This document shows positions 32,267-58,808 of a stretch of 64,000 bases of DNA, one piece after another. Under the pieces are notes generated by a model that worked only from the letters and a program-made list of their open reading frames with translations, made no database searches and was not told where the DNA came from. This DNA comes from Candidatus Woesearchaeota archaeon (GTDB lineage: Archaea > Nanobdellota > Nanobdellia > Woesearchaeales > SM23-78), in the NCBI GenBank assembly GCA_019322375.1, contig JAHWIP010000003.1:6792-70791 (forward strand). The letters run 5' to 3'. A program made the translations under genes and the position numbers. Position 1 is the stretch's first letter, and each line of letters begins with the position of its first letter.

Positions 32267-32626
32267 GGTAGAGCAGTTATAAGCCGCCTTTTGTCAGCCT
32301 CCACGTCTTGCATGGGCAGGCTGTGCTTAACATTCTACTAAGCGTCTCAAAGGACTTGCACCAGTGAGGACTCGCCGTTTCACCCATTCCCATGGCTTAA
32401 AGCGGTCGGGTTGTTAACTCGCGCCCTGTTGCCAGAGTGCTTCATTACCCTCATTCCTATCCATAGGTGGTCTCGTTTCTGAGCCGTTGCCCTGGCTTTC
32501 ACCAGCTAGCTTCCACTAGTCACTTTTCATGGTGGGCGGACTTTCCTAAGCAGAACAAGTCAAAACCGCGCCTTTGAAAGCGCAGGAAATGATAGGTCCT
32601 ACCTGCTGTTAAGCCACTGCCCTACC
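32267..32626 (-). ncRNA. rnpB: RNase P RNA
   Basis: On the minus strand: CR-I GGAAAGUCCG, CR-II GGGUGAAACGGCG, CR-IV-like GACAAAAGGCGGCUUAUA. The P1 helix pairs 5' GGUAGGGCAG (32617-32626) with 3' CUGCUCUACC (32267-32276). GC-rich, no ORF. Confidence 0.7.
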
Positions 32627-33044: not shown

Positions 33045-33335
33045 ATGAAGTTCTTGAATAATAAGAAAGGAGTCCAGCTAACCCTTTCTACAGTGGTTAT
33101 TGCAGTGCTTGTAATCATTGTGCTCATAGTGTTGATAGTGATTTTTACCCAGGGAACAGGCTTGTTCAACATAGGAATAACCAGCTGCGCTGATAGGGGA
33201 GGTAATTGTAATTACGAATCAGCAGATCAATGCGTTGATACTGGCGGCAGTGTTTACAGGTTTGGCAAGTGCACCGACGGGGTTTGCTGTATTCCTAAGG
33301 ACAAGCTTTCAGGGCAAGATGATAATCAAGACTAA
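33045..33335 (+). CDS. Small pilin-like Cys-rich protein (KKG|VQLTLSTVVIAVLVIIVL)
   Basis: 96 aa; Cys pattern C..C....C....G..C..GVCC shared with its neighbours. Confidence 0.55.
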   Translation: MKFLNNKKGVQLTLSTVVIAVLVIIVLIVLIVIFTQGTGLFNIGITSCADRGGNCNYESADQCVDTGGSVYRFGKCTDGVCCIPKDKLSGQDDNQD

Positions 33336-42865: not shown

Positions 42866-45800
42866 ATGGATAAAGTAAAACTGAGATTAAAAAACAGAAA
42901 AGCACAGGTTTACCCGCTTTTTGTAGTGGTCTTTACAATAGTGGCCTTGACAACAGCCCTTATTGGCTTGAGCAATGCAAAAGAGGTTACTGATTTATCT
43001 GGCAGGGAAATGCTTATCGGCACCAAGCAATCAGCTGTTTTTGCATCTCTTCAAGACGCAGATGCTGTTAGTTTATTCATAGAGCAGGCAGCAGAATTTG
43101 CAGGCCAGCAAGCCCTGGATAAAATAAGAAAATCATGCTTTTTTGGAGTTGATGAGGAACAAGAAGTTGATGAGTGGGAGTCTCCATGCGGCAAGTTTGT
43201 TTATCCTCTTTGGAGCACTAATGAAAATCTTTGCCTTCCTGATTGTGAAACAGCTTTTGTCAATGCCTTTAACAAGGATTTTTTAAGCCGAACAAACAAG
43301 TATTATGAGTTCACAAACATAGAGCTGCCTATTTCTTATAACATGAGCCTGGAAATACATGACAATCATTTTTTTGTTCATGGAACCTCTGACACAGAAC
43401 TAAGGATTAATGTGGTTGATATTCAGAGCAGGATTAAGTCTCCCCTGGCAATAGCCCAGACTTATGAGGAAGGCAGGCTTATCTGGCCTGTTGATTACTC
43501 TGACCACACAATCACCTCTTGCTTTGGTGAAAGAGATGTTGTTGGGGGGAGCAAATACCATCCTGCTGTTGATATCCGGGCTCCAAAAGGAACACCAGTG
43601 CTGGCAGCTGCTTTAGGAAAAGTGATTCTTACTGACCCTTGCTGGGGAAGAATTGTTATTAATCATGGCTCTGGCTTAAGCACAGAGTATCTTCACTTGG
43701 AAAAAATTGATGTTAAGGTTAATGATGATGTGGTGCAGGGACAAAGAATAGGAACTTCTGGCAGCAATGGCTGTGACACAAGAGAGTTTGTTCCGCACCT
43801 GCATTTTGGGGTTATATATCAAGGTGTTCAGTCACCCATGCATTATAAAGGGCAGGAAATAGTTTTGAGCAACAACCATATCCAGCCCATGTGCTTGATT
43901 GAAAAAGGGTATGCTGCTAAGCCAGAAAGCAACTGCAACCAGCTTGTGAACACAGACTTAGACAAGATTTGTGAATTGTATAATCTGCCAGAAGAATTTT
44001 TTGAATCATCAGAATCATCAAAGCCATCAGAGCCATCAGAACCAGACCAAGACACTTCTTCTGAAGAAAGTGCTGATGCAGAGAATGCTGGTGCAGAAAG
44101 TGTTAATGCAGAAAGCACTGAGCTGGATTATTCTCTGGCACAGGCTCCTGGCAGCTATGCTTTTAAACCATCTTTTACCTTGAGGGTTAACAAGAAAATA
44201 GAAAACCCTATTGAGCCAGTAACAGAGTGGTTTGAGAACACCTGGAACGAGTGCGAGGATGACCCTTGGAAATGTTTAAGAGAAAAAATGAGTGAGTTTA
44301 ATGAGCAGGACTATGATTACAAGCTCATGTTTGCTGACAGGTGCGAGGAAGGCTATCACTTGTTCTATGACATACTGGAGTTTTTTGAGGACTGCTTTTC
44401 AAACCAGAAGTATGGGTGCTCATGCGAGTTTAATTTATCAGATGCTTTTTCAATAACTGACTTGCGAATAGTTTTTGACACACAAGCAAACACAGCCTCT
44501 CTTTTTTCCAAGCAGGGAGATAAGCCTGGTGATGAATATGAATTAATTGATTCATACCAGTTCTATTATGGAAGCATAACCAAGCCAGCCCCTGCTTCTC
44601 CTTATAGGTATTATGTGTATCAGCTTGATTATGATGATTATGGGGAGCTGGAAAATGCAGAGCTTATGCAAATGAAGTCATTGCTTGATGTATTTGATGT
44701 TGTGCCTTTTTTTGATTACAAAGAACTAAGACTGGCAAAGCCAGGAGAGGCTGAGCAAGGATATTTTGTGAACACAGAAACAATTCAGTGCAAGTACAAG
44801 AAGAACAAGTTCAGGCTGTGTGCAAAGCCAGCACAGGAAAGAGAAGACTTGTTCCCTATAAGGTTTGCTTTTCACTTAAAAGACAAGCCTCCTGAGCCTG
44901 TTAAAAAAGGAGATGTGGAAATTATAGAGGTGGAGGAGAGTTCTGAGTCAGATGTTGACAAGGTAATGCAGGCAGCAGGCTTTCTAGGAACCATATTCCC
45001 TCCTCTAGGCTACTTGTTCACAGCAATTAATATTCTCAGTGTGTTGGAAGACTTTAAACCAAGAAAGTTCGAGGTAATAGTTGATGTTCCTCTTGACAAG
45101 GATGGCAAACCCCTGGATGTTGCTGGCTATGAAGTTTATTGCAGTGATTACCTGACAAACATCCTGCCAGTGGATGTTTTGGATAAATATAATCCAAGTC
45201 ATTTTGTTGTGATGGCTAATGATGAGATGAATAAAAAAGTAAGCCAGCTAGACCAGTATGTTAAGAAGAACCCTTACACAGACTTTCTGAATCTTGAGAG
45301 CTGTGATGTGCCTGTGAGCAAGTTCACAGGAGAAACCATTCTTGTGCCTGGAATCAAAGGGGTTGTTAAGGACGGTAAAATGGTTTTCAACCTTCATAAA
45401 TGCGGGGACTTGGCAATAATTATAGATAAACTAATAAGAAAAGACTACTGTGTATCACTAATACCTGTTGACAAGAATGGCAACAAGATAATGGAGCATG
45501 CTGTGAGCAACTGCGCGCAAACCAATTCACTGCTTGACCTGGTTATTAGTGAGATGATAGAGGAACAGCTAGGAGAATTTATTCCTGCAAGCCTTATACC
45601 TGATAATTTAAAGCCTTATATCAAGCTGCCTGACACAAGCGATATTGTTAATGCAGTAACAGGGGAAGGCAGTTTTGACATGATAGACATTGTTAATCTT
45701 GACAAGCTGGACGCAGACATAAAAAATTATCTTGAGGAATTCGTGGTTGGAACTATTAATGAAGACATAATAGGCACTTCTGTTGTTAATTCTATTGATG

Positions 45801-46639
45801 ACTTAAAGCTCTGGGAAAAACAAACAGTGCTTAACACCCTGTCAAACCAGATAAAAAATGATGATGCAAAAACCTTGTTTGATGCCTTTGTAACAGGAGA
45901 AGGTGTTGCTGAGTCTGCCAAGCGCATGGCTTATGAAAAAGGAGTAGGATATATAGACCAGACAAAAACACCTGAGATACTTAAGGAGATAGCCAAAGGA
46001 GAAGACCCTAAAAGCCTTGCATACCAGGAACTGGTAAAAGCAGCTGAGAAAGAGCTCAGCACTGACGAGAAAAAACAGGCTCTGCTGGAGATAGCCAGGA
46101 GCAGCAGTGGAAGAGAGGTAAAAGATAAGATAATAGAAAAAGCCCTTGAAAAAGGATGCGGCGAGTCATATGGAATAAGTGCAGAGCAGGCAATCAACTG
46201 CCTTGACAATGAAGAGGTAGAAAATATTTATCACAAAGTTCTGACAGACTACAGCACACCAGACAAGGTAAAACAGTTTTTGCTTGACAAGGCAATTGAC
46301 AAGTTTGATGAAAAAACACCAGACGTGCTAAAAGAGATTGTTCTGAAAAGAGACTTTAAAGGAGCAGCAAAGGACATGCTTGAGAAAGAGCTTGACAAGC
46401 TTCCAGACGCTGTTAAGAAAGAGTTTATTACTGATATACTTGAAGGCAGGCTTCCAGATGTTGAGTACTTGCAGCAGGAACTAGTGAAAATGATACCAGC
46501 AGTAAACAATGAATATGTGAATGCCCTGCTAAAAGACGGCAATGTTAAAAACCTGATAGAATCAACCCTTAAATCAGAGATAGAAAAACAACTAGGCTCA
46601 TTCTTCTCAGATGAATGCGTGGCAATTAATAAGGATTGA
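42866..46639 (+). CDS. Giant (1257-aa) pilin-like protein carrying a LytM/M23 metallo-endopeptidase domain
   Basis: N-terminus NRKAQVYPLFVVVFTIVALTTALIGL. M23 motifs HPAVDIRAPKGTPVLAAALGKVIL...IVINHGSGLSTEYLHL...GQRIGTSGSNG...PHLHFGVIY (HxxxD ... HxH). S/E-rich linker repeats at ~43990-44110; long alpha-helical K/E-rich C-terminal region. Confidence 0.75.
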   Translation: MDKVKLRLKNRKAQVYPLFVVVFTIVALTTALIGLSNAKEVTDLSGREMLIGTKQSAVFASLQDADAVSLFIEQAAEFAGQQALDKIRKSCFFGVDEEQEVDEWESPCGKFVYPLWSTNENLCLPDCETAFVNAFNKDFLSRTNKYYEFTNIELPISYNMSLEIHDNHFFVHGTSDTELRINVVDIQSRIKSPLAIAQTYEEGRLIWPVDYSDHTITSCFGERDVVGGSKYHPAVDIRAPKGTPVLAAALGKVILTDPCWGRIVINHGSGLSTEYLHLEKIDVKVNDDVVQGQRIGTSGSNGCDTREFVPHLHFGVIYQGVQSPMHYKGQEIVLSNNHIQPMCLIEKGYAAKPESNCNQLVNTDLDKICELYNLPEEFFESSESSKPSEPSEPDQDTSSEESADAENAGAESVNAESTELDYSLAQAPGSYAFKPSFTLRVNKKIENPIEPVTEWFENTWNECEDDPWKCLREKMSEFNEQDYDYKLMFADRCEEGYHLFYDILEFFEDCFSNQKYGCSCEFNLSDAFSITDLRIVFDTQANTASLFSKQGDKPGDEYELIDSYQFYYGSITKPAPASPYRYYVYQLDYDDYGELENAELMQMKSLLDVFDVVPFFDYKELRLAKPGEAEQGYFVNTETIQCKYKKNKFRLCAKPAQEREDLFPIRFAFHLKDKPPEPVKKGDVEIIEVEESSESDVDKVMQAAGFLGTIFPPLGYLFTAINILSVLEDFKPRKFEVIVDVPLDKDGKPLDVAGYEVYCSDYLTNILPVDVLDKYNPSHFVVMANDEMNKKVSQLDQYVKKNPYTDFLNLESCDVPVSKFTGETILVPGIKGVVKDGKMVFNLHKCGDLAIIIDKLIRKDYCVSLIPVDKNGNKIMEHAVSNCAQTNSLLDLVISEMIEEQLGEFIPASLIPDNLKPYIKLPDTSDIVNAVTGEGSFDMIDIVNLDKLDADIKNYLEEFVVGTINEDIIGTSVVNSIDDLKLWEKQTVLNTLSNQIKNDDAKTLFDAFVTGEGVAESAKRMAYEKGVGYIDQTKTPEILKEIAKGEDPKSLAYQELVKAAEKELSTDEKKQALLEIARSSSGREVKDKIIEKALEKGCGESYGISAEQAINCLDNEEVENIYHKVLTDYSTPDKVKQFLLDKAIDKFDEKTPDVLKEIVLKRDFKGAAKDMLEKELDKLPDAVKKEFITDILEGRLPDVEYLQQELVKMIPAVNNEYVNALLKDGNVKNLIESTLKSEIEKQLGSFFSDECVAINKD

Positions 46640-48091: not shown

Positions 48092-50200
48092 TTATCTTAC
48101 AACCCTGTCAAGACCAGCTTTTATAAAGGGCTCTTTTAATTTGTTTAATGCTTTTAATTCAATCTGTCTTATTCTTTCCCTGGTAACTTTGAATTCTATA
48201 CCAACTTCGTCCAAGGTATGGAAATTATACTTACCAATTCCAAAGCGCATGTAAAGAATTTTAATTTTTCTTTTACGGTCAGGATCCTTTTTAAAAGTGT
48301 CATGGATAACTTTTCTGACCTGATAACCTACTAATGATTGTGCAGCAGCATGTTCAGTATCAGCTTTTGGATCCTCAACAAGCTCACCTATTTCAACCTC
48401 TACTTCTTCTCCTATTGTTGTTGATAGTGAGATTGGTTTTTCAGCCCATTTTTTATACTTCTCAACTCTTTCCTCAGCAACATTCATTTCTTTAGCAACT
48501 TCTTCTGTTGTTGGCTCTCTGCCTAACCTGCCAAATAATTTCCTGGCAATTCCCAAGTACTTGTTTATTTTTTCCACTGAATGCACAGGAGTCCTGATAG
48601 TCCTTGCCTGGTCTGCTATAGCCCTTGTTATTGACTGTTTAATCCACCAAGTAGCATATGTTGAAAATTTATACCCTCTTCTGTATTCCCAGCTGTCTAT
48701 TGCTCTTAGAGCTCCCATGTTTCCCTCCTGAATCAGGTCAGTAAATTCCATACCCCTGTGCTGGTATTTTTTTGCTATACTCACAACCAGTTTTGTATTT
48801 GAACTTGCAAGCTCATTTTTGTTAGATATAAGCTCATCATGAAGCTTTTCTATTTCAGGGCTAACAGGGTCAAGATGAGGAAATATTGATTTGTAAGTTT
48901 CATAAGTTTTTTTCCAGTATTTTTTTTTGAATTTAAGTTTGCTAAGAAGCTTTTTCAGTGCAAAATCTCCTTTTTCTTTGGCATTATGAAAGTTCTCTAT
49001 AAATTCTATTTTTTCCCGAGCAGTCTTCTCATAACCTTTCCAAAGTCGTACTATTTCATCCGGGTGATTTATTTTAATAGCCTTTTCTATATCTTTTACA
49101 ACATAATCAACCAGGCATTCTGGCTTCTTATTGTCGCCTTGCAGGGAGCGCTCTTCAGACAATCCATTGTACAAGAAATTCCTGCTCTCAATTGTTTTGA
49201 ACTCATTAAACAGTTCTGTTAAGTATTTTGTTACAAACAAGTATTTTCCTAGAAAAGATTTTAGGGCTTTCTCCCTTCTTTTCTCAGCCTTTTCAAACTT
49301 TTTTTTGAAGACGTTCACATCTTCACAACAAATAATATCTTCAAGGTCTTTTCCCTTGTTTTCAAGGGTTTCATCCAAGCTTTCACCATGTTTTTTATTC
49401 AAGGCTTCCTGGGCTTCCAGGGCTTCATTAATATCCTTTCTTATTTTATTTAAGATATATTTTTTCTCAATAATATGCTTGAATATTTCTTCTCTTTTCT
49501 GCTCTATTTTTTTTCCAAAAGCATATTCCTGCTCTCTTGTTAGCAAGGCGTGCTTGCCCATGGAACTTAAAATAAAACTTGTTTCACTGCCAATATATGT
49601 CTTTCTCAAGTCTACTTTATCCTCCTCAAGGTCAGAGTACTCTTTTATCAAGAACTTATAATTATCATTAAAAATCTTATTTTTGTTTTCCAGAGCAGTT
49701 CTGTGCATGTCAAGAAGCAAGTTATAATAGAACTTTCTAACATCTGCCCTGTCATATTTTTTTCCATAGTCTAACTTAACAGGGTCGACATACCTGCTTA
49801 GTATAATGTCATGTTTTTTCATGTATGGGTCTCCGAATTCTTTTGGAGTCTTGGTTTCAATCTCTCTTTTTTTTTGCATCAGGTATGCCATAAATCCCCT
49901 TAACGAGATATAACTGTCTCTGTTTATATAGTCCAGGCAGAAAAAAGGATTTTTCTTAGCAAGCTTGATAAGAGCGCTGTTTTCAATATGAAATACTTTA
50001 GCAAGGTCAGCTGTTCTGAGCCTTTGGGAGTATCCAACTTCTTGTTTTAGAACAGAACCTTTTTGTATCAGGTCAAGAAAGAATTTTGAATCCATCTCTA
50101 TGTTTTCCCAGACAGAGGCTCCGAATTTTTCTTTGATTTGAGCAGGGCGCAGGTATATACCTTTGCTCTCTTCTAGAAAAGCATGGGCTGCTTCTTGCAT
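48092..50200 (-). CDS. Bacterial-type sigma-70 family factor with group-1 (RpoD-like) architecture
   Basis: Region 1.2 [15 protein letters not shown]; ~230-aa insert; region 2 [52 protein letters not shown]; region 3 and [21 protein letters not shown]; region 4.2 [18 protein letters not shown]. Confidence 0.8.
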
Positions 50201-50266
50201 TTTACTTTTTCACATAATTTAAAATATGTTTTAAATATATTTAAAATAATATATTCATATTTATTT

Positions 50267-52492
50267 TTAAACAATTTGGTATTCTTGCCTTACCTTCTTG
50301 TTTTTTTCAATGATAGGGATGAGCTGCTCTACAGCGCTTTTATGAAAAGCCTTTAAGTAGGTGTCTGTTGATGTCATTTTTAAGAAAGGAAAATCAGGGT
50401 CTGTGCTCATTCTGCTAAGCTGTTTGGGCTGAATCCTCATGCCAGTTGCTTCATATATATAATTTGAAGCTTGATGCACTCCAATTGTTTCTTTCTTGTC
50501 TTTTTTTATTAGTTCTATTTTTTCATCAAAGAACTTGGTAATAAAGATTTCTTCAAAACCGTTTTTTACAAGATAAACAGGCATGGTATTGCCTAGTTTT
50601 TCTATGTAGCTTATTTTCTTTTCAGGGTTATTGAACTCGTATCTTCTGAGATTCTTGATTAGTTTGGTTTCTATATGCTGGAACCGGGTTACACTTGTCC
50701 TTGCAAAGTTCTCTCTTATTATCTCAACCAGAAGTTTGTGCCCCCTAATTTTCTGAAGAATTTCAATTGCTTCAGCTCCCTTGTAAGTTTCGCTTGGTCT
50801 TTGATTAAAGAGACCTGCTTCTGCAAGCCTTCTGAAAACCAAAAGATTTCTTCCAGTGATTTCTGAAAGTTCTGACCCAGGGTACAGCCTTAAAGGATAA
50901 ATCTCTAGCATGTCTGGCCTGGTTTCAAGCCTTAAATCACCAATGCCTTCAAAAATCTGGGCAAGAGTCCTGCTGTTTTTAGATATAAGATTGTCATCTT
51001 CTTCAAAATACATTTCATCCAGCATGTCTATGAAACGCTTCATACCAAACTCTTTGAACTGCTCTGCTCTGTGCTTTGCAATAGCATACCCACAGTCCCT
51101 GCGAAATTCTGCTTTGAGGTGAGCCAAAAGATTTCTATCATCCTCAATTCTTTTTTCCTTATTTATGTAAATAACAGCACCATCTTCCTCTGTTTCCATA
51201 TATTTAGCAAAAGGGCCGGAAACTGATGGTTCTGCCAGCTCAATTTTAGTTTTTTTGTCTAATCTTTTTTCAACCCAGTCTGTTGCTTCTTTAAGAAAAT
51301 TTCTTAGCTTTGCTTCTTCTTTTTTTTCCTGCTCTCTCTTTATGTTTGTATAGATTCCGCGAGCAATATTTTTTATATGACTTTTTAGTTCTAAAAGCTC
51401 CTCAGTCCCTTTTTGTATGCGCTGCTTGTCAAATCCAAGATCTGGCTTTAATGATTCTACTTCTATAAACCCATATGTGCGTGCTGCAAAACCCAGAGCC
51501 ATTTCTTCCAGCTTGACAATTCCTCCTTCGCCCAGGGTTCTTCCAACCACAAGATGAATTCCACGCACATCCTTTTCTATTGTTTTATGCGGAAGATAAT
51601 ATATATGCCCTCTAATAGGACCGCATTTTTCTAGGGCATCCTTGATTTCATAAACAATTGCTTCTTTTGGAATAGGGGTTTCTATCTCTATATCATTCAT
51701 TTTTACTCTAAAAGCAGGGCTGAGCTGGAGTGCAAACTTTTGTTTAATCAAATCAGCAAGCTTGTCTGTTTCAATTGTGATTTTTCCTTTTTTAGAACCC
51801 AAAGGCTTCATAATGATTTCTGTGCCATGTTTTTTTTGGTCAGTTATTCTTTCTTCACTATAACTAACCTTTCCCCATAAGCCCTGATTAATTATTTTTT
51901 CTAAAGAACCATACTCTTCCTCAACATCCTCTATAAGCAGACTGGTGTTTAACTCAGGTATGGTGTGAGGGGATTCTCTTTTATCAAGAACTCTTTTGAC
52001 AATCCGCTCAATATATTTATCTTTTTGCTTCTCATTAAGATTCATCTCTTCAAACTTAGGGCTGGTTAAGATGGAGTGCTGAATGGTTTTTCTTACAAAC
52101 ACCTCTTTGGTATGATATTTTTTTCCTTTTCCTTTTTTTACTGTGCTCATTTGATAGCCAAAACAAAGGTATCTTATGAACTCCTTGCCTACTCCTGCAT
52201 CACCTATTTTTAGTCTTCCAGTGCGGGTTCTGGGGTTAAGCTTCTTAATATTAGTGCCATAAGTATTGAAGTGCTTAAGGTCTTCAAGATTCATGCCTTC
52301 CCCATTATCTCTTATGAGAAGACTTTTATTTTTATCATCAATTATTATTTCCACAAGAGGAGCATCTGCATCCCAGGCATTATCAATGCCCTGTATTATT
52401 GCTTCATAAGGGCTTAGAAATAGGGATTTGCCAAGATTCTCATGAAACTCTTTTGAGATTCCTCTCCTTACTTTAACAGTTTTCTTTGTCAT
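50267..52492 (-). CDS. GHKL-superfamily ATPase (Hsp90/MutL/MORC-like Bergerat fold) with a large C-terminal extension
   Basis: N-box EAIIQGIDNAWDADA; G1 LIRDNGEGMNLEDL; G2-like GTNIKK...IGDAGVGKEF. ATG at 52492 (GTG at 52498 also possible). Directly upstream of and co-directional with the sigma-70 gene. Confidence 0.55.
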   Translation of the reverse strand: MTKKTVKVRRGISKEFHENLGKSLFLSPYEAIIQGIDNAWDADAPLVEIIIDDKNKSLLIRDNGEGMNLEDLKHFNTYGTNIKKLNPRTRTGRLKIGDAGVGKEFIRYLCFGYQMSTVKKGKGKKYHTKEVFVRKTIQHSILTSPKFEEMNLNEKQKDKYIERIVKRVLDKRESPHTIPELNTSLLIEDVEEEYGSLEKIINQGLWGKVSYSEERITDQKKHGTEIIMKPLGSKKGKITIETDKLADLIKQKFALQLSPAFRVKMNDIEIETPIPKEAIVYEIKDALEKCGPIRGHIYYLPHKTIEKDVRGIHLVVGRTLGEGGIVKLEEMALGFAARTYGFIEVESLKPDLGFDKQRIQKGTEELLELKSHIKNIARGIYTNIKREQEKKEEAKLRNFLKEATDWVEKRLDKKTKIELAEPSVSGPFAKYMETEEDGAVIYINKEKRIEDDRNLLAHLKAEFRRDCGYAIAKHRAEQFKEFGMKRFIDMLDEMYFEEDDNLISKNSRTLAQIFEGIGDLRLETRPDMLEIYPLRLYPGSELSEITGRNLLVFRRLAEAGLFNQRPSETYKGAEAIEILQKIRGHKLLVEIIRENFARTSVTRFQHIETKLIKNLRRYEFNNPEKKISYIEKLGNTMPVYLVKNGFEEIFITKFFDEKIELIKKDKKETIGVHQASNYIYEATGMRIQPKQLSRMSTDPDFPFLKMTSTDTYLKAFHKSAVEQLIPIIEKNKKVRQEYQIV

Positions 52493-52676
52493 CAACACCC
52501 CCCGCGCCCCTCTGTTTTGCTACTGAATAATAGATATTTTATTTAAACCTTTCTATTTTAGAGACACAGATTTGACAGATAATAATTGCAAGCCATGTTT
52601 ATATACTTTACTCAGGGATGTCCAGTGCCTATTTTAGAAAATTTTTTAAACTACTGTTCTTATACCATATACTAGA

Positions 52677-53739: not shown

Positions 53740-54135
53740 TTAATAAAGATAGTCCGGAGTTCCCCAGTACCCTCCGCAGCCTTTACAAGCAGATTCTGAG
53801 CTACATGCACGGTTATACTTGCAGCATCCAGGAGTTTTTCTTGAAGTTGCATAACAAAAACATGTCACCCGACCACAATGAGGATCTCCCCCGCCAGATT
53901 CCATTGGCTTTCCCACCACGTTTTCTTCTTCCATTACTTCAGAAAGCATGTCATATTCCTCATCAGTAAGCCCAGACACAACATATGCCTTTTGTAATTC
54001 AGGTTCAGATGTTGTTGTAATTGTGGCTGCCTCTTCCCCTCTATTCATAAACATAACTACTATTGCCACTATGGCTACTATTGCTACCATTGCTATTAGT
54101 GCGAATAAGTAGTTGCCTTTGTCTTTTTCTGCCAT
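53740..54135 (-). CDS. Small membrane-anchored Cys-rich protein
   Basis: 131 aa; TM ALIAMVAIVAIVAIVVMFM; C-terminal CGRVTCFC...CC...C...CKGCGG. Confidence 0.4.
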   Translation of the reverse strand: MAEKDKGNYLFALIAMVAIVAIVAIVVMFMNRGEEAATITTTSEPELQKAYVVSGLTDEEYDMLSEVMEEENVVGKPMESGGGDPHCGRVTCFCYATSRKTPGCCKYNRACSSESACKGCGGYWGTPDYLY

Positions 54136-54264: not shown

Positions 54265-57200
54265 ATGTTTTCCTGGGCTTGTATGGCACAATCATCCATG
54301 TTTATTGGCAAGTTTGAATTTGAAGGGCCAGGCTCACACCTAACCATGACTCTTTGGCAGGGTAACAAGGCTTACCAGTTCTCAACTAATTTCATAGGGG
54401 TTTATCCTAATGACCAGACCAAGCTTAAGAAGAAAAAAACCATTTGGCCTGCAAGCAGGGAAAAAAAGATTTCTCTTGAAAAAATACTTGTGGAACAGGG
54501 CTTGGAAAAATCAGATTCTTTTGATATAAAACAGGGAGAATACGCCTTTGATATAATAGACAAAAGAATTGTGCAGCTTTTTCTGGATAAAAGAGATTAT
54601 GACAAGCTTCCGGAAGAAGCAACCAATGAGCTGATCACCTGCCACACTCAAAGCATGAAATGGGATTTTGGAATCATGCAAAAAGCAGAGATAGAGTCCT
54701 GGTTGTTAAAGATACTAAAGGAAAAGAGCAAGTTAGACCAGGAAATTGATTCCTTGTACAAGGCAATGCTCAGGACCAATAAGAAACAATTAACAGGTTC
54801 ATTAGATGATATAACGAGTTTTATTAAAAAAGATTATCATAAAGATGACTTTGATAAAAAAATTATTCCTTTGCTTTTTGAAAGCATTGGGTACAGATTT
54901 AAACAACAAGAAGATAAAAATTTATTGATTCACCTATTTCAGCAGACCAGGTATTCTTTTAAGCACAAGCATCATTATATTAATGCACAGAAAAAAGTGT
55001 TTGAGCCTTTAGACATAGAGATTGATTACCCTAAATTAACAGACAAGAAAAATGATGCTTATTATAAAAAGATATTAAAAAAGCCTTTTGGCAGAAGATT
55101 TCTTGAAAACAGCAAGCAGGTGCTTGGTGAAAAAGGCATAGATGCAATATTTTCCAAAGATAAGGAGATATACATCCTTAAATCAGAGCAGGAAGAATTG
55201 TTTAATACCTTTAAGAGACTGCTGAGCCATAAAGCAGAGTATCCTGATGTAGAGGACTATGTGGAGAGCATAAAATACCAGCTGGAAGACTTGTTCTGCA
55301 GAGTACAATACTTTAATCTTCACAGCAAGACACGCAAAGACCTTAGGAAGCTGGTTAAGGAAAAACTAGAAGAAATAGGGGGCGAAGAGAGAGACAAAGA
55401 TAATTTGAATTATGATAAAAAGATTTTTGAACGTGCACAAAGACTCAGGCAAAAAAAGCAGGACTTGGAGAGCAGGATTAAGCAGATAAAAAGCTCCAAC
55501 ACCCTGAAGTATGACTTTGACTACCAGAGAACAATGCTCTTTCTTGACATAATGCACAGGCATCCTGAAGTAAAAGGAGATGATAAGCTTAAAAAAAAGC
55601 TTAGAAAAAAGATTTATTTTGAAGGAATAAAACCAAAAGGAATGATTAATGAGCATGAATGGCTTGACCAGACACCCAGTGTTTTCCTGGACATAGAAAA
55701 ATTTCAGTATGGAACACCAGAAGAGGTTATTAATGCAATTATATCTTCTGTAAGAAGAGTAGATGGAGAATACATAGGGCGGATAGATACTGATATTGAT
55801 TCAGGAGAAAAAAATATTCTTGGTTTTCAAATAAAACACCACCATAATAATATGAACCTGATGCTATCCTCTGCTGATTTTATTAATCCAGAAAGATGCT
55901 ATACTTACTTTACCCAGGGCGACTATGATTTTAAGCATTTAAGCAAAACCAGGCTTTTTAGGACTGGCAAGGAAAAAGTGATTGTTCCAAGGCAAAAGGT
56001 GCATGAGGAGTTTATCAGGCGTTATGACATACCAGGCGTATCTATTAACACAGTCACGCTTGCAAAAATAATTTGGCCTCACCTGCTTAATCACAGATTA
56101 GCAACTCTTGTCAACAAATTATATCAAAAAGAAGGAACAGAAAAAGTATTTGAAAAATCATTTGACTATGAAGAATTAAGAGAACAAGCAGGGTTGGCCA
56201 AAAAAGGAGATAAAGAAAAAGCTTATGACATACTATATTATGGAGGGGATGATGTTGATAAACCATTCAAAGCCTGGCTTCATCCAAAAGCCAGATACAT
56301 CTTTAAAGACCTGCTGGAAGTGTGCAACACCTTTGGCATAACACCTGACCAGGCAAGCTCTAATGCTAACACAGCAGCCCATCTTTTTGAAAAAAGATTT
56401 TATGAAAAATCCGGAGGCATACTCTCTCCAGGCATCTTTAGGCAGAAACACCAGGAATTGGCCAAGGAGTTCAGAAACAAATATACTGAGTACAGAACCA
56501 AACATTTGCTAGAGCAAGGCCTGAAAATAGATTTTGAAAGAGGAGTCCAGGACAATGTCAGCCAGCTCTACTTTTCTCCAGAACTGTTCATATGCAAAGT
56601 GCTTTACCCTGATTTTCCAGGAGTAAAAGCCTTTGTTGACAGAACCATGCGCATGAAAAACCCTGAAAGAAAGGTCAGCAGGCTGCAGTATGTAAAACCC
56701 TTTGTGGTAAGCATGCTAACAGATTTATACGGAATTCATAAGATACAAGACGAGATAAAAGTGCTTGAGAAAGAAAAAGCTGAACTTCTTGAGGAAATAA
56801 GAGGAATGCCTGAAAGCCAGGAAAAACAGTCGGAAAAAGAACAAAAAATAAAGGCTTTTGGAGGGAAATGGGAAAAAATCATTGACAAATTAATAAGCAT
56901 GAATAATAAGAAGTATTTCTTTGGACAACTATTCGGAGTTAAATGCGAAAAAGTAGAGGAAAGAGTACAGCAGGCATACAAAACAATAGCAGATGTAATC
57001 AATGAGAATGATATTCATCCCTTGCAAATAAAAGGCAACTTTATCTATGCAAAAGAAAATCTTCCTGACAAGGTGCTGAGAAAAGCAGGCTTGTTCAGGA
57101 TGAGGAATATGCGAATATTTAATATGCAGAAAAATGAACTCACTTTTCATGCAGAAGACCAGTACGCAGGCTACCCGCCCAGGCTTGACCGCCCGGGTTT

Positions 57201-57738
57201 TCATTACAGCATGTTCCAGACAAGAATAATCAAAGAAGCCCTGGACAGGCTTTTGCAAAAAAAAGAAGACTATCTTGGAGTCCTTAATATTATAAACACA
57301 AGCTCAACCAAATTATCTGCAGACCTGCCAACAGCCCTTGTTAATCCTAAATTAGAAAAAAACCAGGCATTTATACAGGACTTGTTAAAATACAATAGAA
57401 CCAAGAACCGCTATGTGGGCAATGATGAAAAAGGAAAAAGAGAATTTACAGAGCACAACAAAAAATTCTACAGGCCAGATCCCAAGTACTTTATGAGAAA
57501 GTTCTATGGAAAAACAAGCAAAGACATAGATGTTCATGCTCCTATAGCCAAGCTCTTTGGAGGAATAATAAACCTGGGAGAAGACAATTCCAGTGATACA
57601 AAAAAAGAATTTTGGCGTCAAAGACAGATGTACAGGCAGCTAATATCTGAGACTATGCTGAGCAGGCAGGAATTAAAGCAGATTTTAAACCAAGAGCTTG
57701 CAGTGCATGAACCAGGCGGACAGTTTATTATTATGTAA
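54265..57738 (+). CDS. Large (1157-aa) soluble hypothetical protein; possible DEDD-exonuclease / divergent family-B-polymerase-like motif series (speculative)
   Basis: Ordered motifs VFLDIE (Exo I-like), QGDYDFKHL (Exo II-like), YYGGDDVD (Exo III-like), DNVSQLYFSPE (like DxxSLYPS), KPFVVSMLTDLYG (like KxxxNSxYG). No clear YGDTDS motif, no TM. Confidence 0.5.
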   Translation: MFSWACMAQSSMFIGKFEFEGPGSHLTMTLWQGNKAYQFSTNFIGVYPNDQTKLKKKKTIWPASREKKISLEKILVEQGLEKSDSFDIKQGEYAFDIIDKRIVQLFLDKRDYDKLPEEATNELITCHTQSMKWDFGIMQKAEIESWLLKILKEKSKLDQEIDSLYKAMLRTNKKQLTGSLDDITSFIKKDYHKDDFDKKIIPLLFESIGYRFKQQEDKNLLIHLFQQTRYSFKHKHHYINAQKKVFEPLDIEIDYPKLTDKKNDAYYKKILKKPFGRRFLENSKQVLGEKGIDAIFSKDKEIYILKSEQEELFNTFKRLLSHKAEYPDVEDYVESIKYQLEDLFCRVQYFNLHSKTRKDLRKLVKEKLEEIGGEERDKDNLNYDKKIFERAQRLRQKKQDLESRIKQIKSSNTLKYDFDYQRTMLFLDIMHRHPEVKGDDKLKKKLRKKIYFEGIKPKGMINEHEWLDQTPSVFLDIEKFQYGTPEEVINAIISSVRRVDGEYIGRIDTDIDSGEKNILGFQIKHHHNNMNLMLSSADFINPERCYTYFTQGDYDFKHLSKTRLFRTGKEKVIVPRQKVHEEFIRRYDIPGVSINTVTLAKIIWPHLLNHRLATLVNKLYQKEGTEKVFEKSFDYEELREQAGLAKKGDKEKAYDILYYGGDDVDKPFKAWLHPKARYIFKDLLEVCNTFGITPDQASSNANTAAHLFEKRFYEKSGGILSPGIFRQKHQELAKEFRNKYTEYRTKHLLEQGLKIDFERGVQDNVSQLYFSPELFICKVLYPDFPGVKAFVDRTMRMKNPERKVSRLQYVKPFVVSMLTDLYGIHKIQDEIKVLEKEKAELLEEIRGMPESQEKQSEKEQKIKAFGGKWEKIIDKLISMNNKKYFFGQLFGVKCEKVEERVQQAYKTIADVINENDIHPLQIKGNFIYAKENLPDKVLRKAGLFRMRNMRIFNMQKNELTFHAEDQYAGYPPRLDRPGFHYSMFQTRIIKEALDRLLQKKEDYLGVLNIINTSSTKLSADLPTALVNPKLEKNQAFIQDLLKYNRTKNRYVGNDEKGKREFTEHNKKFYRPDPKYFMRKFYGKTSKDIDVHAPIAKLFGGIINLGEDNSSDTKKEFWRQRQMYRQLISETMLSRQELKQILNQELAVHEPGGQFIIM

Positions 57739-57767: not shown

Positions 57768-58808
57768 TTATGTAAACATCATGCTAAGCATATAAATCTT
57801 GTTAAGAATCTCAACCTTGTTAAGAACAATGGTTTCTACTAATGCGCCGATAATGAATATAATAATCGCTATTATGAACAAGGTGTAATTATTAGCAAAC
57901 ACTTTTTTCAGTCTTTTCTGCTGAAACAAGTTTCCAATAAAATGAATCATGCTGGTAATTACTATAACACAGATTAAGCTGAAGATTAAAGGGCTTGTTA
58001 TTCCAAATCCATACCCAAGGATTAGTTTTAAAAACACAATCAGGGCAAAGCCGCAGATAAGATAAAAAATAAAATTTCTAATATCCTTTCTCTCCTTAAT
58101 AATCTCATCAGATATAATGCCCCCAGAAATAGCAGCCAATATATAGGCTCCGCCTTCAAGTATTAAATGAGGCAGGGTAATGATAAATATCAAGAATAAG
58201 TACCCCCAAGGGCTGACACCAGCAGCACTGCCAGCTGCAAAAGCCCTGTACCCAAACAAAGCACCCCAGCTGCTGGCATTCCAGGTTATAAAAAAGATAG
58301 CTCCGTCACCAGCAACAATAGCCAGTAAAAAGCAGGCAAGCAAAACCCACCAGTTATTAGCCAGGATGCTCACAAAAGTGTCGAAAATATAAGCCCTTCC
58401 CCTAAGAGCAGGGTCAACAAACAACTGCTCCTTAAAGATGTTAAAAGTGTTGACTCCGAGCTGAGGAAGGATAAAGGAATAAAAAGTATAAGTCAGATAA
58501 ATGCCAAAGAAAATAGCAAAATAAACCCTTATAGCCTGGTTGTTCTTAAAAAAATGCTTAACAGAAGCAAAATTCTTTAAAGAAAGCCTTTTCTCAGTCT
58601 CCTCTTCTTTTTCCTCCTTCTTAAACATTTTCTGCAGATAAGGAAGAATAAGCAGAGAAGTAAAAATAACACTAACAATGCCAGAATTAGCCCCAAACAA
58701 CAACCTGGCAGCAATAATCCCAACAGTAGAATAGATAACAGCAATAAGAAAAGCATAACCAACCCTTTTCTCAAGCCAGTTCTCAGGGAATAAGTGTTCT
58801 AGGACCAT
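57768..58808 (-). CDS. SpoIIM/DUF95-family integral membrane protein
   Basis: 346 aa, ~8 TM, LPHLILEGGAYILA motif typical of the DUF95/SpoIIM family. Confidence 0.45.
   Translation of the reverse strand: MVLEHLFPENWLEKRVGYAFLIAVIYSTVGIIAARLLFGANSGIVSVIFTSLLILPYLQKMFKKEEKEEETEKRLSLKNFASVKHFFKNNQAIRVYFAIFFGIYLTYTFYSFILPQLGVNTFNIFKEQLFVDPALRGRAYIFDTFVSILANNWWVLLACFLLAIVAGDGAIFFITWNASSWGALFGYRAFAAGSAAGVSPWGYLFLIFIITLPHLILEGGAYILAAISGGIISDEIIKERKDIRNFIFYLICGFALIVFLKLILGYGFGITSPLIFSLICVIVITSMIHFIGNLFQQKRLKKVFANNYTLFIIAIIIFIIGALVETIVLNKVEILNKIYMLSMMFT

What the first reader, a model, noticed from the sequence alone, without database searches (positions are those of the whole stretch)
48092..52498. 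Complete bacterial-type group-1-like sigma-70 factor in an archaeal genome, co-transcribed with a large GHKL ATPase
The 702-aa product has regions 1.2, 2.1-2.4 (…[28 protein letters not shown]), 3 and 4.2 ([18 protein letters not shown]), plus a ~230-aa non-conserved insert as in RpoD. Archaea initiate transcription with TBP/TFB and have no use for sigma on their own RNAP. Its composition and codon style match the surrounding archaeal genes. The upstream gene on the same strand, with a 66-bp AT-rich gap, is a 741-aa GHKL ATPase (Bergerat N-box plus DNGEGM G1 box). Small GHKL proteins such as SpoIIAB and RsbW are classical anti-sigma factors. Two explanations are possible: horizontal acquisition from bacteria with a non-canonical role, or an effector used to manipulate a bacterial partner's RNAP. 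The adjacent murein hydrolases make the second idea worth testing.
Basis: partly seen in the sequence, partly recalled or inferred. Interest (0 to 1): 0.8.

Follow-up and report, generated by a model that had tools for sequence, protein, structure and literature searches.

The report
Archaeal sigma-70 paired with MORC-like ATPase
A tiny DPANN archaeon (Woesearchaeota) natively encodes a bacterial RpoD-like sigma factor whose gene sits beside a MORC/MutL-type ATPase gene in several distant lineages; sigma genes in these archaea were already reported, but this dedicated partner was not, and it gives a testable handle on what a sigma does in a cell without bacterial RNA polymerase.

Summary
On the minus strand, a 702-aa sigma-70 (48092-50200; regions 1.2, 2, 3, 4 and an RpoD-like spacer) follows a 741/743-aa GHKL ATPase (50267-52498). 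The contig is archaeal (RNase P RNA, RadA, RPA) and shows no compositional break, so this is not a chimera.

Sigma-70 genes in Woesearchaeota are already published (Castelle 2021), and those authors found no anti-sigma.

What appears new is the pairing. The GHKL and sigma genes are adjacent in 7 of 10 sampled GHKL clusters, down to about 22% identity. The pairs occur in unrelated archaeal neighbourhoods and in three arrangements, behind an archaeal BRE/TATA promoter.

The long sigmas keep nearly all RpoD residues for core binding and for -10 and -35 recognition. Region 1.1 is replaced by an orphan 205-aa domain.

Best reading, which is inferred: a native sigma plus ATP-gated partner that acts on promoter-like DNA. 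The closest analogue is MzaA-MzaB, but membership tests failed. The RNA polymerase partner remains unknown.

The parts
52516..52560 (-). Archaeal-type promoter of the module. It has an A-rich BRE-like stretch, a TATA box TTTAAATA (52540-52547), and a conserved roughly 21-nt element TATCTATTATTCAGTAGCAAA (52516-52536) around the expected transcription start.
   Evidence: Sequence read. The element is 87-95% identical over 45-85 bp in L001, L002, L003, L006 and L008, although the L008 GHKL protein is only 28% identical. A recognisable version is present in L007 and L015. TTTAAAT lies 26-55 nt upstream of the GHKL start in 11 of 13 loci, 7 nt upstream in L012, and is absent in L010. TTTAAATA occurs only 12 times in the whole 64-kb window, and the downstream element occurs once. 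No TTGACA-like -35 sits at proper spacing.
50267..52498 (-). GHKL ATPase gene. The ORF is 743 aa from GTG 52498. The likely true start is ATG 52492, giving 741 aa.
   Evidence: AlphaFold2 model with 41 family sequences: pLDDT 87.1, pTM 0.74.
51863..52498 (-). Bergerat-fold ATP-binding domain (aa 1-212). Motif I is AIIQGIDNAWDADA, with Gln36 (52391-52393) where the family and MutL have the catalytic Glu. Motif II is D64-N-G-E-G-M. Motif III is G99-D-A-G-V-G.
   Evidence: Family alignment columns. The profile alignment to MutL puts the family Glu on the Glu of KELVENS. Gln occurs in the window clade, P0126, P0135 and P0166. Glu occurs in most others.
51890..52090 (-). Helical insertion of 67 aa (aa 137-203) inside the ATPase domain. 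It is specific to GHKLs that sit next to an N-domain-bearing sigma, and is a candidate sigma-contact surface (inferred).
   Evidence: Present in the window protein, P0002, P0003 and P0124-P0127. Occupancy is below 20% in the other 34 aligned family members. Modelled as helices with pLDDT 92-95.
51419..51862 (-). Transducer-like second domain of the ATPase module (aa 213-360).
50912..51418 (-). Long helix of about 50 residues (aa 359-413) and a mixed alpha/beta middle region (aa 416-529). This may be a dimerisation or coiled-coil element (inferred).
   Evidence: Secondary structure of the model.
50270..50911 (-). C-terminal region (aa 530-743) with two winged-helix-like units (about aa 537-600 and 671-740). 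Probably DNA binding (inferred).
50201..50266 (-). AT-rich spacer of 66 bp between the GHKL stop and the sigma start. It contains a second TTTAAATA (50238-50245), 38-45 nt upstream of the sigma ATG, which may be an internal archaeal promoter.
   Evidence: In relatives the spacer is 10-23 bp, 2 bp, or a 4-bp overlap, so co-transcription is the ancestral state.
48092..50200 (-). Sigma-70 family gene, 702 aa.
49586..50200 (-). Orphan N-terminal domain (aa 1-205) that replaces sigma region 1.1. It has an invariant YSQRL...YISLRGF signature.
   Evidence: No Pfam, PDB or PHROG match. It is 55-59% identical in the P0005/L001 orthologues, 37% in L008, and detectable in L007, L015 and L009 with E values from 6e-17 to 7e-7. 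It is as conserved as the sigma core.
48836..49585 (-). Region 1.2 (aa 206-240) and the RpoD-like non-conserved region (aa 241-455).
48095..48835 (-). Regions 2, 3 and 4 (aa 456-702), with the RpoD residues for core binding, -10, extended -10 and -35 recognition intact.

Best explanation
This is a native, vertically maintained two-gene module of Woesearchaeales/Nanoarchaeia (DPANN archaea). It is transcribed from an archaeal BRE/TATA promoter.

Gene 2 is an RpoD-derived sigma. It keeps its promoter-recognition and polymerase-docking surfaces. Its auto-inhibitory region 1.1 has been exchanged for a lineage-specific 205-aa domain.

Gene 1 is its dedicated partner. It is a MORC/MutL/Hsp90-class GHKL ATPase that should dimerise on ATP binding. 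It carries two MerR-like winged helices. In this lineage Gln replaces the catalytic Glu, so it probably binds ATP but hydrolyses it slowly or not at all.

Proposed mechanism (inferred). The sigma supplies sequence-specific recognition and opening of -35/-10-like AT-rich DNA. The ATPase acts as an ATP-gated clamp or switch that holds, positions or releases the sigma. The contact may run through the clade-specific ATPase insertion (aa 137-203) and the sigma N-domain. Together they would modulate transcription or DNA transactions inside the archaeon. The ATPase would then fill the regulatory role that Castelle et al. could not assign to any anti-sigma.

Shown: nativeness, the conserved linkage, the fold classes, and residue retention. 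Inferred: physical interaction, DNA targeting, and which RNA polymerase, if any, is engaged.
For: 1. Native and archaeal. RNase P_arch, RadA and RPA are in the window. Composition and codon usage match the rest of the window. The same pair sits between archaeal genes in independent assemblies.

2. Linkage beyond synteny. An exhaustive HMMER search defines a GHKL family of 181 cluster representatives at E<=1e-10. Of 10 sampled 50%-identity clusters, 7 have a sigma-family gene immediately adjacent:
- window/P0003 clade;
- P0124 (L015);
- P0125 (L008);
- P0126 (L007, flanked by IleRS, Trm1 and EF-1beta);
- P0127 (L009);
- P0129 (L016/17, 4-bp overlap, 391-aa sigma);
- P0135 (L013, head-to-head, 567-aa sigma, flanked by GatB, TruD and Adk).
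In 123 kb of fetched archaeal loci, the only sigma-70 HMM hits are these adjacent genes.

3. Functional constraint on the sigma. The window, P0005, L007 and L013 sigmas keep D403, Q406, E407, N409, Y425, F427, Y430, W433, W434, Q437, R441, H455, E458, R584, E585, R586, R588 and Q589 (E. coli numbering), with single exceptions. Each is closer to bacterial RpoD (0.43-0.54) than to the other archaeal lineages (0.37-0.43) (motifs also visible). The N-domain is as conserved as the core.

5. Co-variation. The 137-203 insertion is found only in GHKLs paired with an N-domain sigma.

6. Archaeal promoter conserved in front of the module.

7. Precedent. The validated MZA system also pairs a long sigma-70 protein with a MutL-like GHKL.
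Against: - No interaction was tested.
- The insertion/N-domain co-occurrence comes from one clade, so it amounts to a single evolutionary event.
- Three sampled GHKL clusters lack a sigma neighbour (L012, L018; L010/11 is uninformative). So the ATPase family does not strictly need a sigma.
- The catalytic Glu-to-Gln change is not universal among sigma-linked members. P0124, P0125 and P0127 keep Glu.
- Retention of the sigma residues that dock on the bacterial beta-prime clamp helices is not explained by an RNA-polymerase-independent role. The archaeon is not known to have a bacterial core enzyme.
- No sigma-70-type promoter sits upstream of the module. Promoter-like sites are only mildly above shuffles near the pair (53 against 36.5+/-5.9) and not elsewhere (50 against 44+/-7; 52 against 42+/-7). 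Most of those near the pair lie inside annotated ORFs.
- The module is rare. There was one GTDB hit and one JGI metagenome hit with the pattern scans.
Confidence: 0.45

Rival explanations
1. Trans-kingdom effector. The sigma, with the ATPase as chaperone or co-effector, is delivered into bacterial prey or hosts. There it docks on the bacterial core RNA polymerase and redirects or blocks transcription.
For: Near-complete retention of RpoD residues for bacterial core binding and for -10 and -35 recognition in four deep archaeal lineages is most simply explained by continued use of a bacterial polymerase and bacterial promoters. Loss of region 1.1 would remove auto-inhibition (established sigma70 biology, from my own knowledge). 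Some Woesearchaeota have been proposed to attack bacteria with murein-degrading enzymes and pore-forming toxins (PMC9723730; PMC12352652). The window has an M23-peptidase protein 1.4 kb away.
Against: By inspection of the translations, neither protein begins with a hydrophobic signal-like or transmembrane segment; no predictor was run. No secretion-system gene was found near any pair. The peptidoglycan-hydrolase neighbour is not conserved outside the window's close relatives. A 700-aa cytoplasmic protein needs a transfer route that is undocumented for these organisms. Neighbourhoods are housekeeping genes, not toxin or effector islands.
Confidence: 0.12
2. Hybrid initiation factor. The sigma docks on the archaeon's own RNA polymerase through the clamp coiled-coil, the site shared by NusG/Spt5 in all domains. 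It acts as an alternative or auxiliary initiation or regulatory factor, and the ATPase controls its availability.
For: Region 2.2 docking residues are conserved. In bacteria, sigma region 2 and NusG bind the same clamp helices, and Spt5 binds the homologous archaeal element (established knowledge; not tested here). Castelle et al. raise transcription regulation alongside TBP, TFB and TFE as a possibility. The module is expressed from an archaeal promoter.
Against: Region 4 normally needs the bacterial beta-flap tip, and no archaeal equivalent interaction is known. No enrichment or conserved placement of -35/-10 promoters was seen in the window. The module is rare and patchy, which is unlike a core transcription component.
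Confidence: 0.15
3. Reduced MZA-like defence or surveillance module. The sigma-like protein and the MutL/MORC-like ATPase sense foreign DNA or infection, as MzaA and MzaB are presumed to do. Effectors would be encoded elsewhere or lost.
For: NCBIfam MzaA scores 279 bits over aa 191-691 and PADLOC MzaA scores 174 bits. Five of 41 GHKL family members weakly match PADLOC MzaB, and others match TmtA and GHKL-type restriction enzymes. Bacterial N-terminal relatives sit next to Dcm methylases. Two divergent GHKL-sigma variants lie behind the same promoter in one sample, which is reminiscent of variable defence loci.
Confidence: 0.13
4. Classical anti-sigma pair. The GHKL protein is a SpoIIAB/RsbW-like serine kinase that sequesters the sigma.
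For: Shared GHKL superfamily and gene adjacency.
Confidence: 0.04
5. Artefact or relic. Either an assembly chimera or bacterial contamination, or a recently transferred bacterial gene that is decaying without function.
For: The sigma core is 55-56% identical to Aminicenantes and Acidobacteriota RpoD.
Against: No compositional or codon break. The same pair is flanked by archaeal genes in at least five independent assemblies. An archaeal promoter precedes it. The ORFs are intact. Orthologues have diverged to 53%, about 43% and about 39% (sigma core) with functional residues kept. Top bacterial hits form a flat plateau at 264-273 bits with no close donor. Published work excluded mis-binning.
Confidence: 0.02

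Closest known systems
Bacterial primary (group 1) sigma factor RpoD/SigA
   Same: Regions 1.2, 2, 3 and 4 and an RpoD-type spacer are present. The core is 52-56% identical to bacterial RpoD, and region 2 is 65% identical to E. coli. Residues for core binding and for -10, extended -10 and -35 recognition are intact.
   Different: Region 1.1 is missing and an orphan 205-aa domain takes its place. All RpoD equivalog models score below cutoff (339 against 555). The host is an archaeon with no known bacterial core polymerase. The gene is driven by a TATA/BRE promoter and coupled to a GHKL ATPase gene.
Sigma-70 family 'fam00359' of DPANN archaea (Castelle et al. 2021, PMC8204110)
   Same: The same phenomenon: sigma-70 genes prevalent in Woesearchaeota, with mis-binning excluded. 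The window protein is almost certainly a member.
   Different: That study reported no anti-sigma or other controlling partner. Here a conserved adjacent MORC-class ATPase, a conserved sigma N-domain and a conserved promoter are documented.
MzaA-MzaB of the MZA (mzaABCDE) anti-phage system
   Same: MZA is the only described system that pairs a roughly 700-aa sigma-70 family protein carrying an N-terminal extension with a MutL-like HATPase_c_3 ATPase.
MORC / paraMORC / MutL-NTD / Hsp90 GHKL-plus-transducer ATPases
   Different: The catalytic Glu is Gln in this lineage. There is a 67-aa clade-specific insertion and a C-terminal pair of MerR-like winged helices. There is no CW, S5-linked nuclease or methylase partner; the partner is a sigma factor.
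BbrUII/HgiDII-type GHKL restriction enzymes
   Same: Best NCBIfam and PADLOC hits of the ATPase N-terminus (52 bits; REase_II in 37 of 41 family members).
   Different: Only about 120-190 N-terminal residues match, and the score is far below cutoff (52 against 550). There is no adjacent Dcm methylase, unlike the bacterial relatives. No nuclease fold was detected.
SpoIIAB / RsbW anti-sigma kinases
   Same: GHKL superfamily, with the gene next to a sigma gene.

Membership tests
Sigma-70 family (Pfam regions 2, 3, 4) | Regions 2, 3 and 4 detected above Pfam gathering scores | tested here: met
   r2 73.9, r3 71.5 and r4 51.2 bits against cutoffs of 24-25
Group 1 (primary, RpoD/SigA) sigma | Region 1.2 plus an RpoD-like core, closer to RpoD than to group 2 | tested here: met
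   r1.2 24.8 bits (cutoff 22). PDB RpoD/SigA about 240 bits against RpoS about 166.
Group 1 (primary, RpoD/SigA) sigma | Region 1.1 (PF03979) at the N-terminus | tested here: not met
   No PF03979 hit. The bacterial hits carry it, while P0004 and P0005 do not. The N-terminal 205 aa have no Pfam or PDB match.
Group 1 (primary, RpoD/SigA) sigma | Passes a curated RpoD equivalog model | tested here: not met
   Best is PRK05658 at 339 bits against cutoff 555. TIGR02393 scores 283 against 354.
Group 1 (primary, RpoD/SigA) sigma | Acts as the housekeeping initiation factor of a bacterial core RNA polymerase | not testable with these tools
   Only 64 kb of the genome is available, and no bacterial rpoB or rpoC gene was found in it.
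MZA defence system (mzaABCDE) | MzaA equivalog | tested here: not met
   NF041931 scores 279 bits against cutoff 800, and RpoD scores higher. PADLOC MzaA matches only aa 464-689.
MZA defence system (mzaABCDE) | MzaB-type GHKL ATPase | tested here: not met
   The window GHKL has no MzaB hit at E<=0.01 in PADLOC or at E<=0.001, and none at E<=0.01 in NCBIfam. Only 5 of 41 family members hit MzaB weakly, with a best E of 1.5e-5.
[not shown]
   No PADLOC or Pfam hits of these kinds in the neighbours, nor in the related loci.
MORC/paraMORC-MutL-Hsp90 class GHKL ATPases | HATPase_c_3-type Bergerat domain with motifs I-III | tested here: met
   PF13589 scores 45.4 bits against cutoff 25. N40, D64xGxG and G99xxGxG are present.
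MORC/paraMORC-MutL-Hsp90 class GHKL ATPases | Contiguous transducer (second) domain forming one ATPase module | tested here: met
   [not shown]
MORC/paraMORC-MutL-Hsp90 class GHKL ATPases | Catalytic Glu in motif I (general base for ATP hydrolysis) | tested here: not met
   Gln36 in the window protein, P0002, P0003, P0126 and P0135. Glu in most family members.
MORC/paraMORC-MutL-Hsp90 class GHKL ATPases | ATP-dependent dimerisation | not testable with these tools
   No multimer prediction or biochemistry was available.
SpoIIAB/RsbW anti-sigma kinases | Small single-domain histidine-kinase-like HATPase_c fold | tested here: not met
   [not shown]
SpoIIAB/RsbW anti-sigma kinases | Partner-switching STAS antagonist gene nearby | tested here: not met
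   No STAS domain among the neighbours scanned.
BbrUII/HgiDII GHKL restriction enzymes | Full-length equivalog match and an adjacent cytosine methyltransferase | tested here: not met
   52 bits against cutoff 550, N-terminal only. There is no methylase next to any archaeal locus, but there is one in the bacterial plasmid relatives.

The most novel reading that the evidence does not exclude
The sigma is an inter-domain weapon or manipulator. A DPANN archaeon keeps a fully competent bacterial RpoD-type sigma, with region 1.1 removed so that it is constitutively active. It transfers this sigma into bacterial partners or prey to capture their core RNA polymerase. The MORC-like ATPase would hold it inactive or unfolded in the archaeal cell, or travel with it. 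This would explain why docking and promoter-recognition residues stay RpoD-like over deep archaeal divergence. It would be the first transcription-factor effector exchanged between the two prokaryotic domains.
Probability: 0.12. Interest if true: 0.95.

Novelty: new variant of a known kind. Interest (0 to 1): 0.62.

Why it matters
Archaea start transcription with TBP, TFB and TFE. A bacterial sigma kept under purifying selection in archaea is therefore an unexplained exception, and one already noted in the literature without a mechanism or a regulator.

This analysis changes the picture in three ways:
- The sigma genes sampled here come as a conserved module with a MORC/MutL-class ATPase.
- The sigma has swapped its auto-inhibitory region for a new domain.
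- A matching insertion exists in the ATPase.

These results turn a curiosity into defined experiments: pull-downs, ATP dependence, DNA binding, and tests of which RNA polymerase is bound.

Depending on the answer, the module could be one of three things:
- a hybrid bacterial/archaeal transcription control;
- an RNA-polymerase-independent reuse of a sigma as a DNA-melting specificity subunit for a MORC-like clamp;
- a cross-domain effector.

It also offers a simpler two-gene relative for understanding the unexplained MzaA-MzaB pair of the MZA anti-phage system.

Tried and rejected
1. Chimera or contamination. Rejected by composition and codon tests and by independent contigs.

2. SpoIIAB-type anti-sigma homology. 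Rejected by fold and profile comparisons.

3. Membership in MZA. Rejected by model cutoffs and missing partner genes.

4. Viral or mobile origin. There were no relatives of the GHKL or the sigma N-domain in IMG/VR. Only generic PHROG hits were found. Plasmid relatives share only the GHKL N-terminus, in restriction-modification contexts.

5. Homology between the sigma N-domain and the GHKL C-terminal winged helices. hhalign gave probability 0.07, so this was rejected.

6. Identity of the sigma N-domain. No Pfam or PDB match was found. There was only a faint HTH_3 hit in the L007 homologue at E 0.008. My impression of an excisionase/MerR-like helix-turn-helix is unverified.

7. Sigma-70-type promoter upstream of the module, or promoter enrichment in the window. 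No convincing site was found. The excess near the pair has z of about 2.8, against about 0.9 and 1.3 elsewhere, and most of those sites lie inside annotated ORFs.

8. Wide locus sampling with family alignments failed because no stretch was conserved enough. The genome and metagenome pattern scans returned only the known lineage.

9. The first structure prediction with 3 sequences was unusable, at pLDDT 37.5. It was repeated with 41 sequences. The afdb50 library was unavailable.

10. The first literature search for 'Mza' returned only noise.

11. The unknown divergent neighbours of the sigma-less GHKLs (L012 445 aa, L018 390 aa) share only a weak 64-aa N-terminal similarity at E 0.007. This is too weak to use.

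Full report
OBSERVATION

Both genes exist as described, on the minus strand.

The 702-aa product of 48092-50200 has Pfam Sigma70 regions 1.2, 2, 3 and 4, all above their gathering scores. The RpoD model PRK05658 aligns to it in one stretch from aa 210 to 692, so the roughly 228-aa spacer between regions 1.2 and 2 is RpoD-like. Solved RpoD/SigA chains score about 240 bits against about 166 for RpoS.

It is not a complete group-1 sigma. Region 1.1 (PF03979) is present in essentially all the bacterial hits but absent here. All curated RpoD models score below cutoff.

The upstream ORF (50267-52498) is 743 aa from a GTG. It is 741 aa from the ATG at 52492, which follows a GGGGGGTG run and matches the NCBI protein. 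It has a HATPase_c_3 domain. The gap to the sigma gene is 66 bp.

HOST AND CONTINUITY

The window carries an archaeal RNase P RNA, RadA and an RPA-like protein. NCBI assigns both target proteins to a Candidatus Woesearchaeota archaeon contig of 71 kb.

GC content is flat across the region. The tetranucleotide profile of the pair correlates 0.944 with the rest of the window (4.4-kb chunks range 0.918-0.978). Codon usage correlates 0.91 and 0.90, among the best in the window.

PRIOR KNOWLEDGE

Castelle et al. 2021 (PMC8204110) already reported sigma-70 genes as prevalent in Woesearchaeota. They excluded mis-binning, found no anti-sigma factors, and called the control mechanism unclear. The bare observation of 'a sigma in an archaeon' is therefore not new.

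THE PAIR IS A CONSERVED MODULE

Word-based searches found only a handful of close relatives. In those, the order CARDB / GHKL / sigma / RPA is conserved, with 10-16 bp between the two genes. That alone could be inherited synteny.

An exhaustive HMMER search with the GHKL profile defined a wider family: 1416 cluster representatives at E<=1e-3, 181 at <=1e-10 and 58 at <=1e-30. Most are 600-750 aa. The named members are Woesearchaeota or Nanoarchaeia.

I looked up the contigs of ten 50%-identity clusters. Seven have a sigma-family gene immediately adjacent:
- The window/P0003 clade.
- P0124 (L015), with a 2-bp gap.
- P0125 (L008).
- P0126 (L007). It has a 713-aa sigma after 16 bp, and is flanked by IleRS, Trm1 and EF-1beta.
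- P0127 (L009).
- P0129 (L016/17). It has a shorter 391-aa sigma with a 4-bp overlap.
- P0135 (L013). It has a 567-aa four-region sigma placed head-to-head, and is flanked by GatB, TruD and adenylate kinase.

The GHKL proteins in these loci are only 22-29% identical to the window's.

Two clusters (L012, L018) have no sigma. Instead they have unknown divergent neighbours. One cluster (L010/11) is a tandem GHKL duplication at a contig end.

In 123 kb of fetched archaeal DNA, the only sigma-70 HMM hits are the genes adjacent to a GHKL gene. Linkage in three arrangements and in unrelated neighbourhoods indicates a functional connection.

THE SIGMA

The N-terminal 205 aa form an orphan domain, with no Pfam, PDB or PHROG match. 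Its signature is YSQRL...YISLRGF. The domain is 55-59% identical in the nearest orthologues and 37% in L008. It is detectable in L007, L015 and L009. It is as conserved as the sigma core.

I aligned the archaeal sigmas with E. coli sigma70. The residue roles below are from my own knowledge.

The four long archaeal sigmas keep the following residues, with single exceptions:
- D403, Q406, E407 and N409, which dock on the beta-prime clamp helices.
- Y425, F427, Y430, W433, W434, Q437 and R441, for -10 recognition and melting.
- H455 and E458, for the extended -10.
- R584, E585, R586, R588 and Q589, for the -35.

Each archaeal lineage is closer to bacterial RpoD (0.43-0.54 identity over regions 2-4) than to the other archaeal lineages (0.37-0.43). 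This pattern is expected if all are held near the RpoD functional optimum.

Bacterial best hits form a flat plateau at 264-273 bits with no close donor. The short L016 sigma lacks most of these residues.

THE ATPASE

With 41 family sequences, AlphaFold2 gave a confident model (pLDDT 87.1, pTM 0.74).

Motif I reads AIIQGIDN where the family and MutL have E-x-x-x-N. This puts Gln at the general-base Glu position. The same change occurs in the window clade, P0126 and P0135 (all sigma-linked) and in P0166. P0124, P0125 and P0127 keep Glu. In MutL and Hsp90, loss of this Glu permits ATP binding but blocks hydrolysis (my own knowledge). This lineage's protein is therefore probably a slow or non-hydrolysing ATP switch.

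A 67-aa helical insertion (aa 137-203, pLDDT 92-95) occurs in exactly the seven aligned GHKLs whose neighbour carries the sigma N-domain. It is absent from the other 34 members. This suggests co-evolving contact surfaces, although it represents one clade and therefore one event.

EXPRESSION SIGNALS

Upstream of the GHKL start lies an A-rich BRE-like stretch, then TTTAAATA, then a roughly 21-nt element.

This 45-bp block is 87-95% identical between loci whose proteins are 28-55% identical. It is recognisable in L007 and L015. TTTAAAT lies 26-55 nt upstream of the GHKL start in 11 of 13 loci; it is 7 nt upstream in L012 and absent in L010. TTTAAATA occurs only 12 times in the whole window.

The module is therefore read by the archaeal machinery. 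No properly spaced -35/-10 pair precedes it. Sigma-70-like sites in the window are at most mildly above shuffles, and most of those near the pair lie inside annotated ORFs.

COMPARISON WITH KNOWN SYSTEMS

The nearest functional analogue is the MzaA-MzaB pair of the validated MZA anti-phage system, which combines a sigma-70 family protein with a MutL-like GHKL. Membership fails for several reasons:
- MzaA scores 279 bits against a cutoff of 800, and below RpoD.
- The window GHKL does not match MzaB.
- Gene order is reversed.
- The neighbours are housekeeping genes.

The weak similarity to BbrUII/HgiDII restriction enzymes covers only the GHKL N-terminus. The bacterial relatives sit beside Dcm methylases, which the archaeal loci lack. 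No viral relatives were found.

MECHANISM

Shown: a native, archaeally transcribed, deeply conserved pair of an RpoD-derived sigma and a MORC-class ATPase.

Inferred:
- The ATPase is the sigma's dedicated ATP-gated partner, acting as a holder, clamp or release switch.
- The sigma contributes recognition and opening of -35/-10-like DNA.
- Loss of region 1.1, which auto-inhibits DNA binding by free sigma70 (my own knowledge), would allow this without a core enzyme.
- Contact may run through the ATPase insertion and the sigma N-domain.

Unresolved: why the polymerase-docking residues are retained. Three options remain.
- The archaeal polymerase's clamp coiled-coil. This is the site that NusG/Spt5 uses in all domains and that sigma region 2 uses in bacteria (my own knowledge).
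- A bacterial polymerase in a partner or prey cell. Predatory Woesearchaeota have been proposed, but there is no export signal or conserved lytic-gene linkage.
- A mimic within the ATPase itself.

VERDICT

Its SpoIIAB analogy and murein-hydrolase link are not supported, and its headline is already published. The conserved sigma-MORC-like module, the replacement N-domain and the matching ATPase insertion were not mentioned in any paper my full-text searches returned. I rate it a new variant of known kinds, of moderate-to-high interest.

Noticed in passing
L008:1-85 versus L004:1-85 (same sample, ERZ23498458); window 52516-52560: Two GHKL-sigma variants share a 95%-identical 85-bp promoter and start region. 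After that, DNA similarity drops below detection (blastn, E<=1e-3). Both contigs begin at the same base, which suggests an assembly-graph branch. They could be strain alleles or paralogues behind one promoter. The sigma-like ORF in L008 stops at 338 aa, so it has only the N-domain and region 1.2.
   Followed up: partly
window 42866-46639 (+): A 1257-aa protein begins with a hydrophobic stretch (judged by eye from the translation) and has a peptidase M23 domain at aa 231-321. Its stop overlaps the start of the RPA-like gene. Archaeal M23 peptidoglycan hydrolases that target bacteria have been described (PMC12352652). The proximity to the sigma pair is not conserved in L007 or L013.
   Followed up: partly
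window 32269-32573 (-): Archaeal RNase P RNA (RF00373, 121 bits, full length). It is useful as a taxonomic anchor. ARAGORN found no tRNA genes anywhere in the 64 kb.
   Followed up: yes
window 54265-57738 (+): A 1157-aa ORF with no Pfam or PADLOC match lies 1.8 kb from the pair on the opposite strand. Many other large ORFs in the window also have no family (26-1891, 6629-8074, 8128-9744, 33235-35157).
   Followed up: no
window 58923-61412 (-) and 57768-58808 (-): An 829-aa protein has a weak peptidase C25 (gingipain-like) match and a MopE-type metal-binding motif. Next to it is a SpoIIM-like membrane protein. These are further bacterial-flavoured envelope genes.
   Followed up: no
L010:242-4167 and L011: Tandem duplication of two GHKL family genes (589 aa and 719 aa, with overlapping stop and start) in a Nanoarchaeia-like contig. 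The contig ends directly after the second gene, so any partner gene is unknown.
   Followed up: no
L012:6549-7886 (-) and L018:2429-3601 (-): GHKL family members without a sigma have divergently transcribed unknown proteins (445 and 390 aa). Their first roughly 65 residues are weakly similar to each other (31% identity, E 0.007) and look helix-turn-helix-like. They could be alternative DNA-binding partners.
   Followed up: partly
L006:2190-4390: In the only GTDB genome hit (MAG DAOWFR010000042, titled Methanobacteriota archaeon), the GHKL gene is split into two overlapping ORFs of 426 and 315 aa. This is either a frameshift or an assembly error. The record's phylum label also disagrees with the Woesearchaeota labels on the relatives.
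   Followed up: no
window 53740-54135 (-): A 131-aa protein has an N-terminal hydrophobic segment and a Cys-rich C-terminus (CGRVTCFC...CCKYNRAC...CKGCGG). It has no family match.
   Followed up: no
window 49131-49661 (+): A 176-aa ORF lies antisense to the sigma gene. It is rich in Ser, Leu and Phe. It is most likely a mechanical by-product of the Lys/Glu-rich sense frame and not a gene.
   Followed up: no
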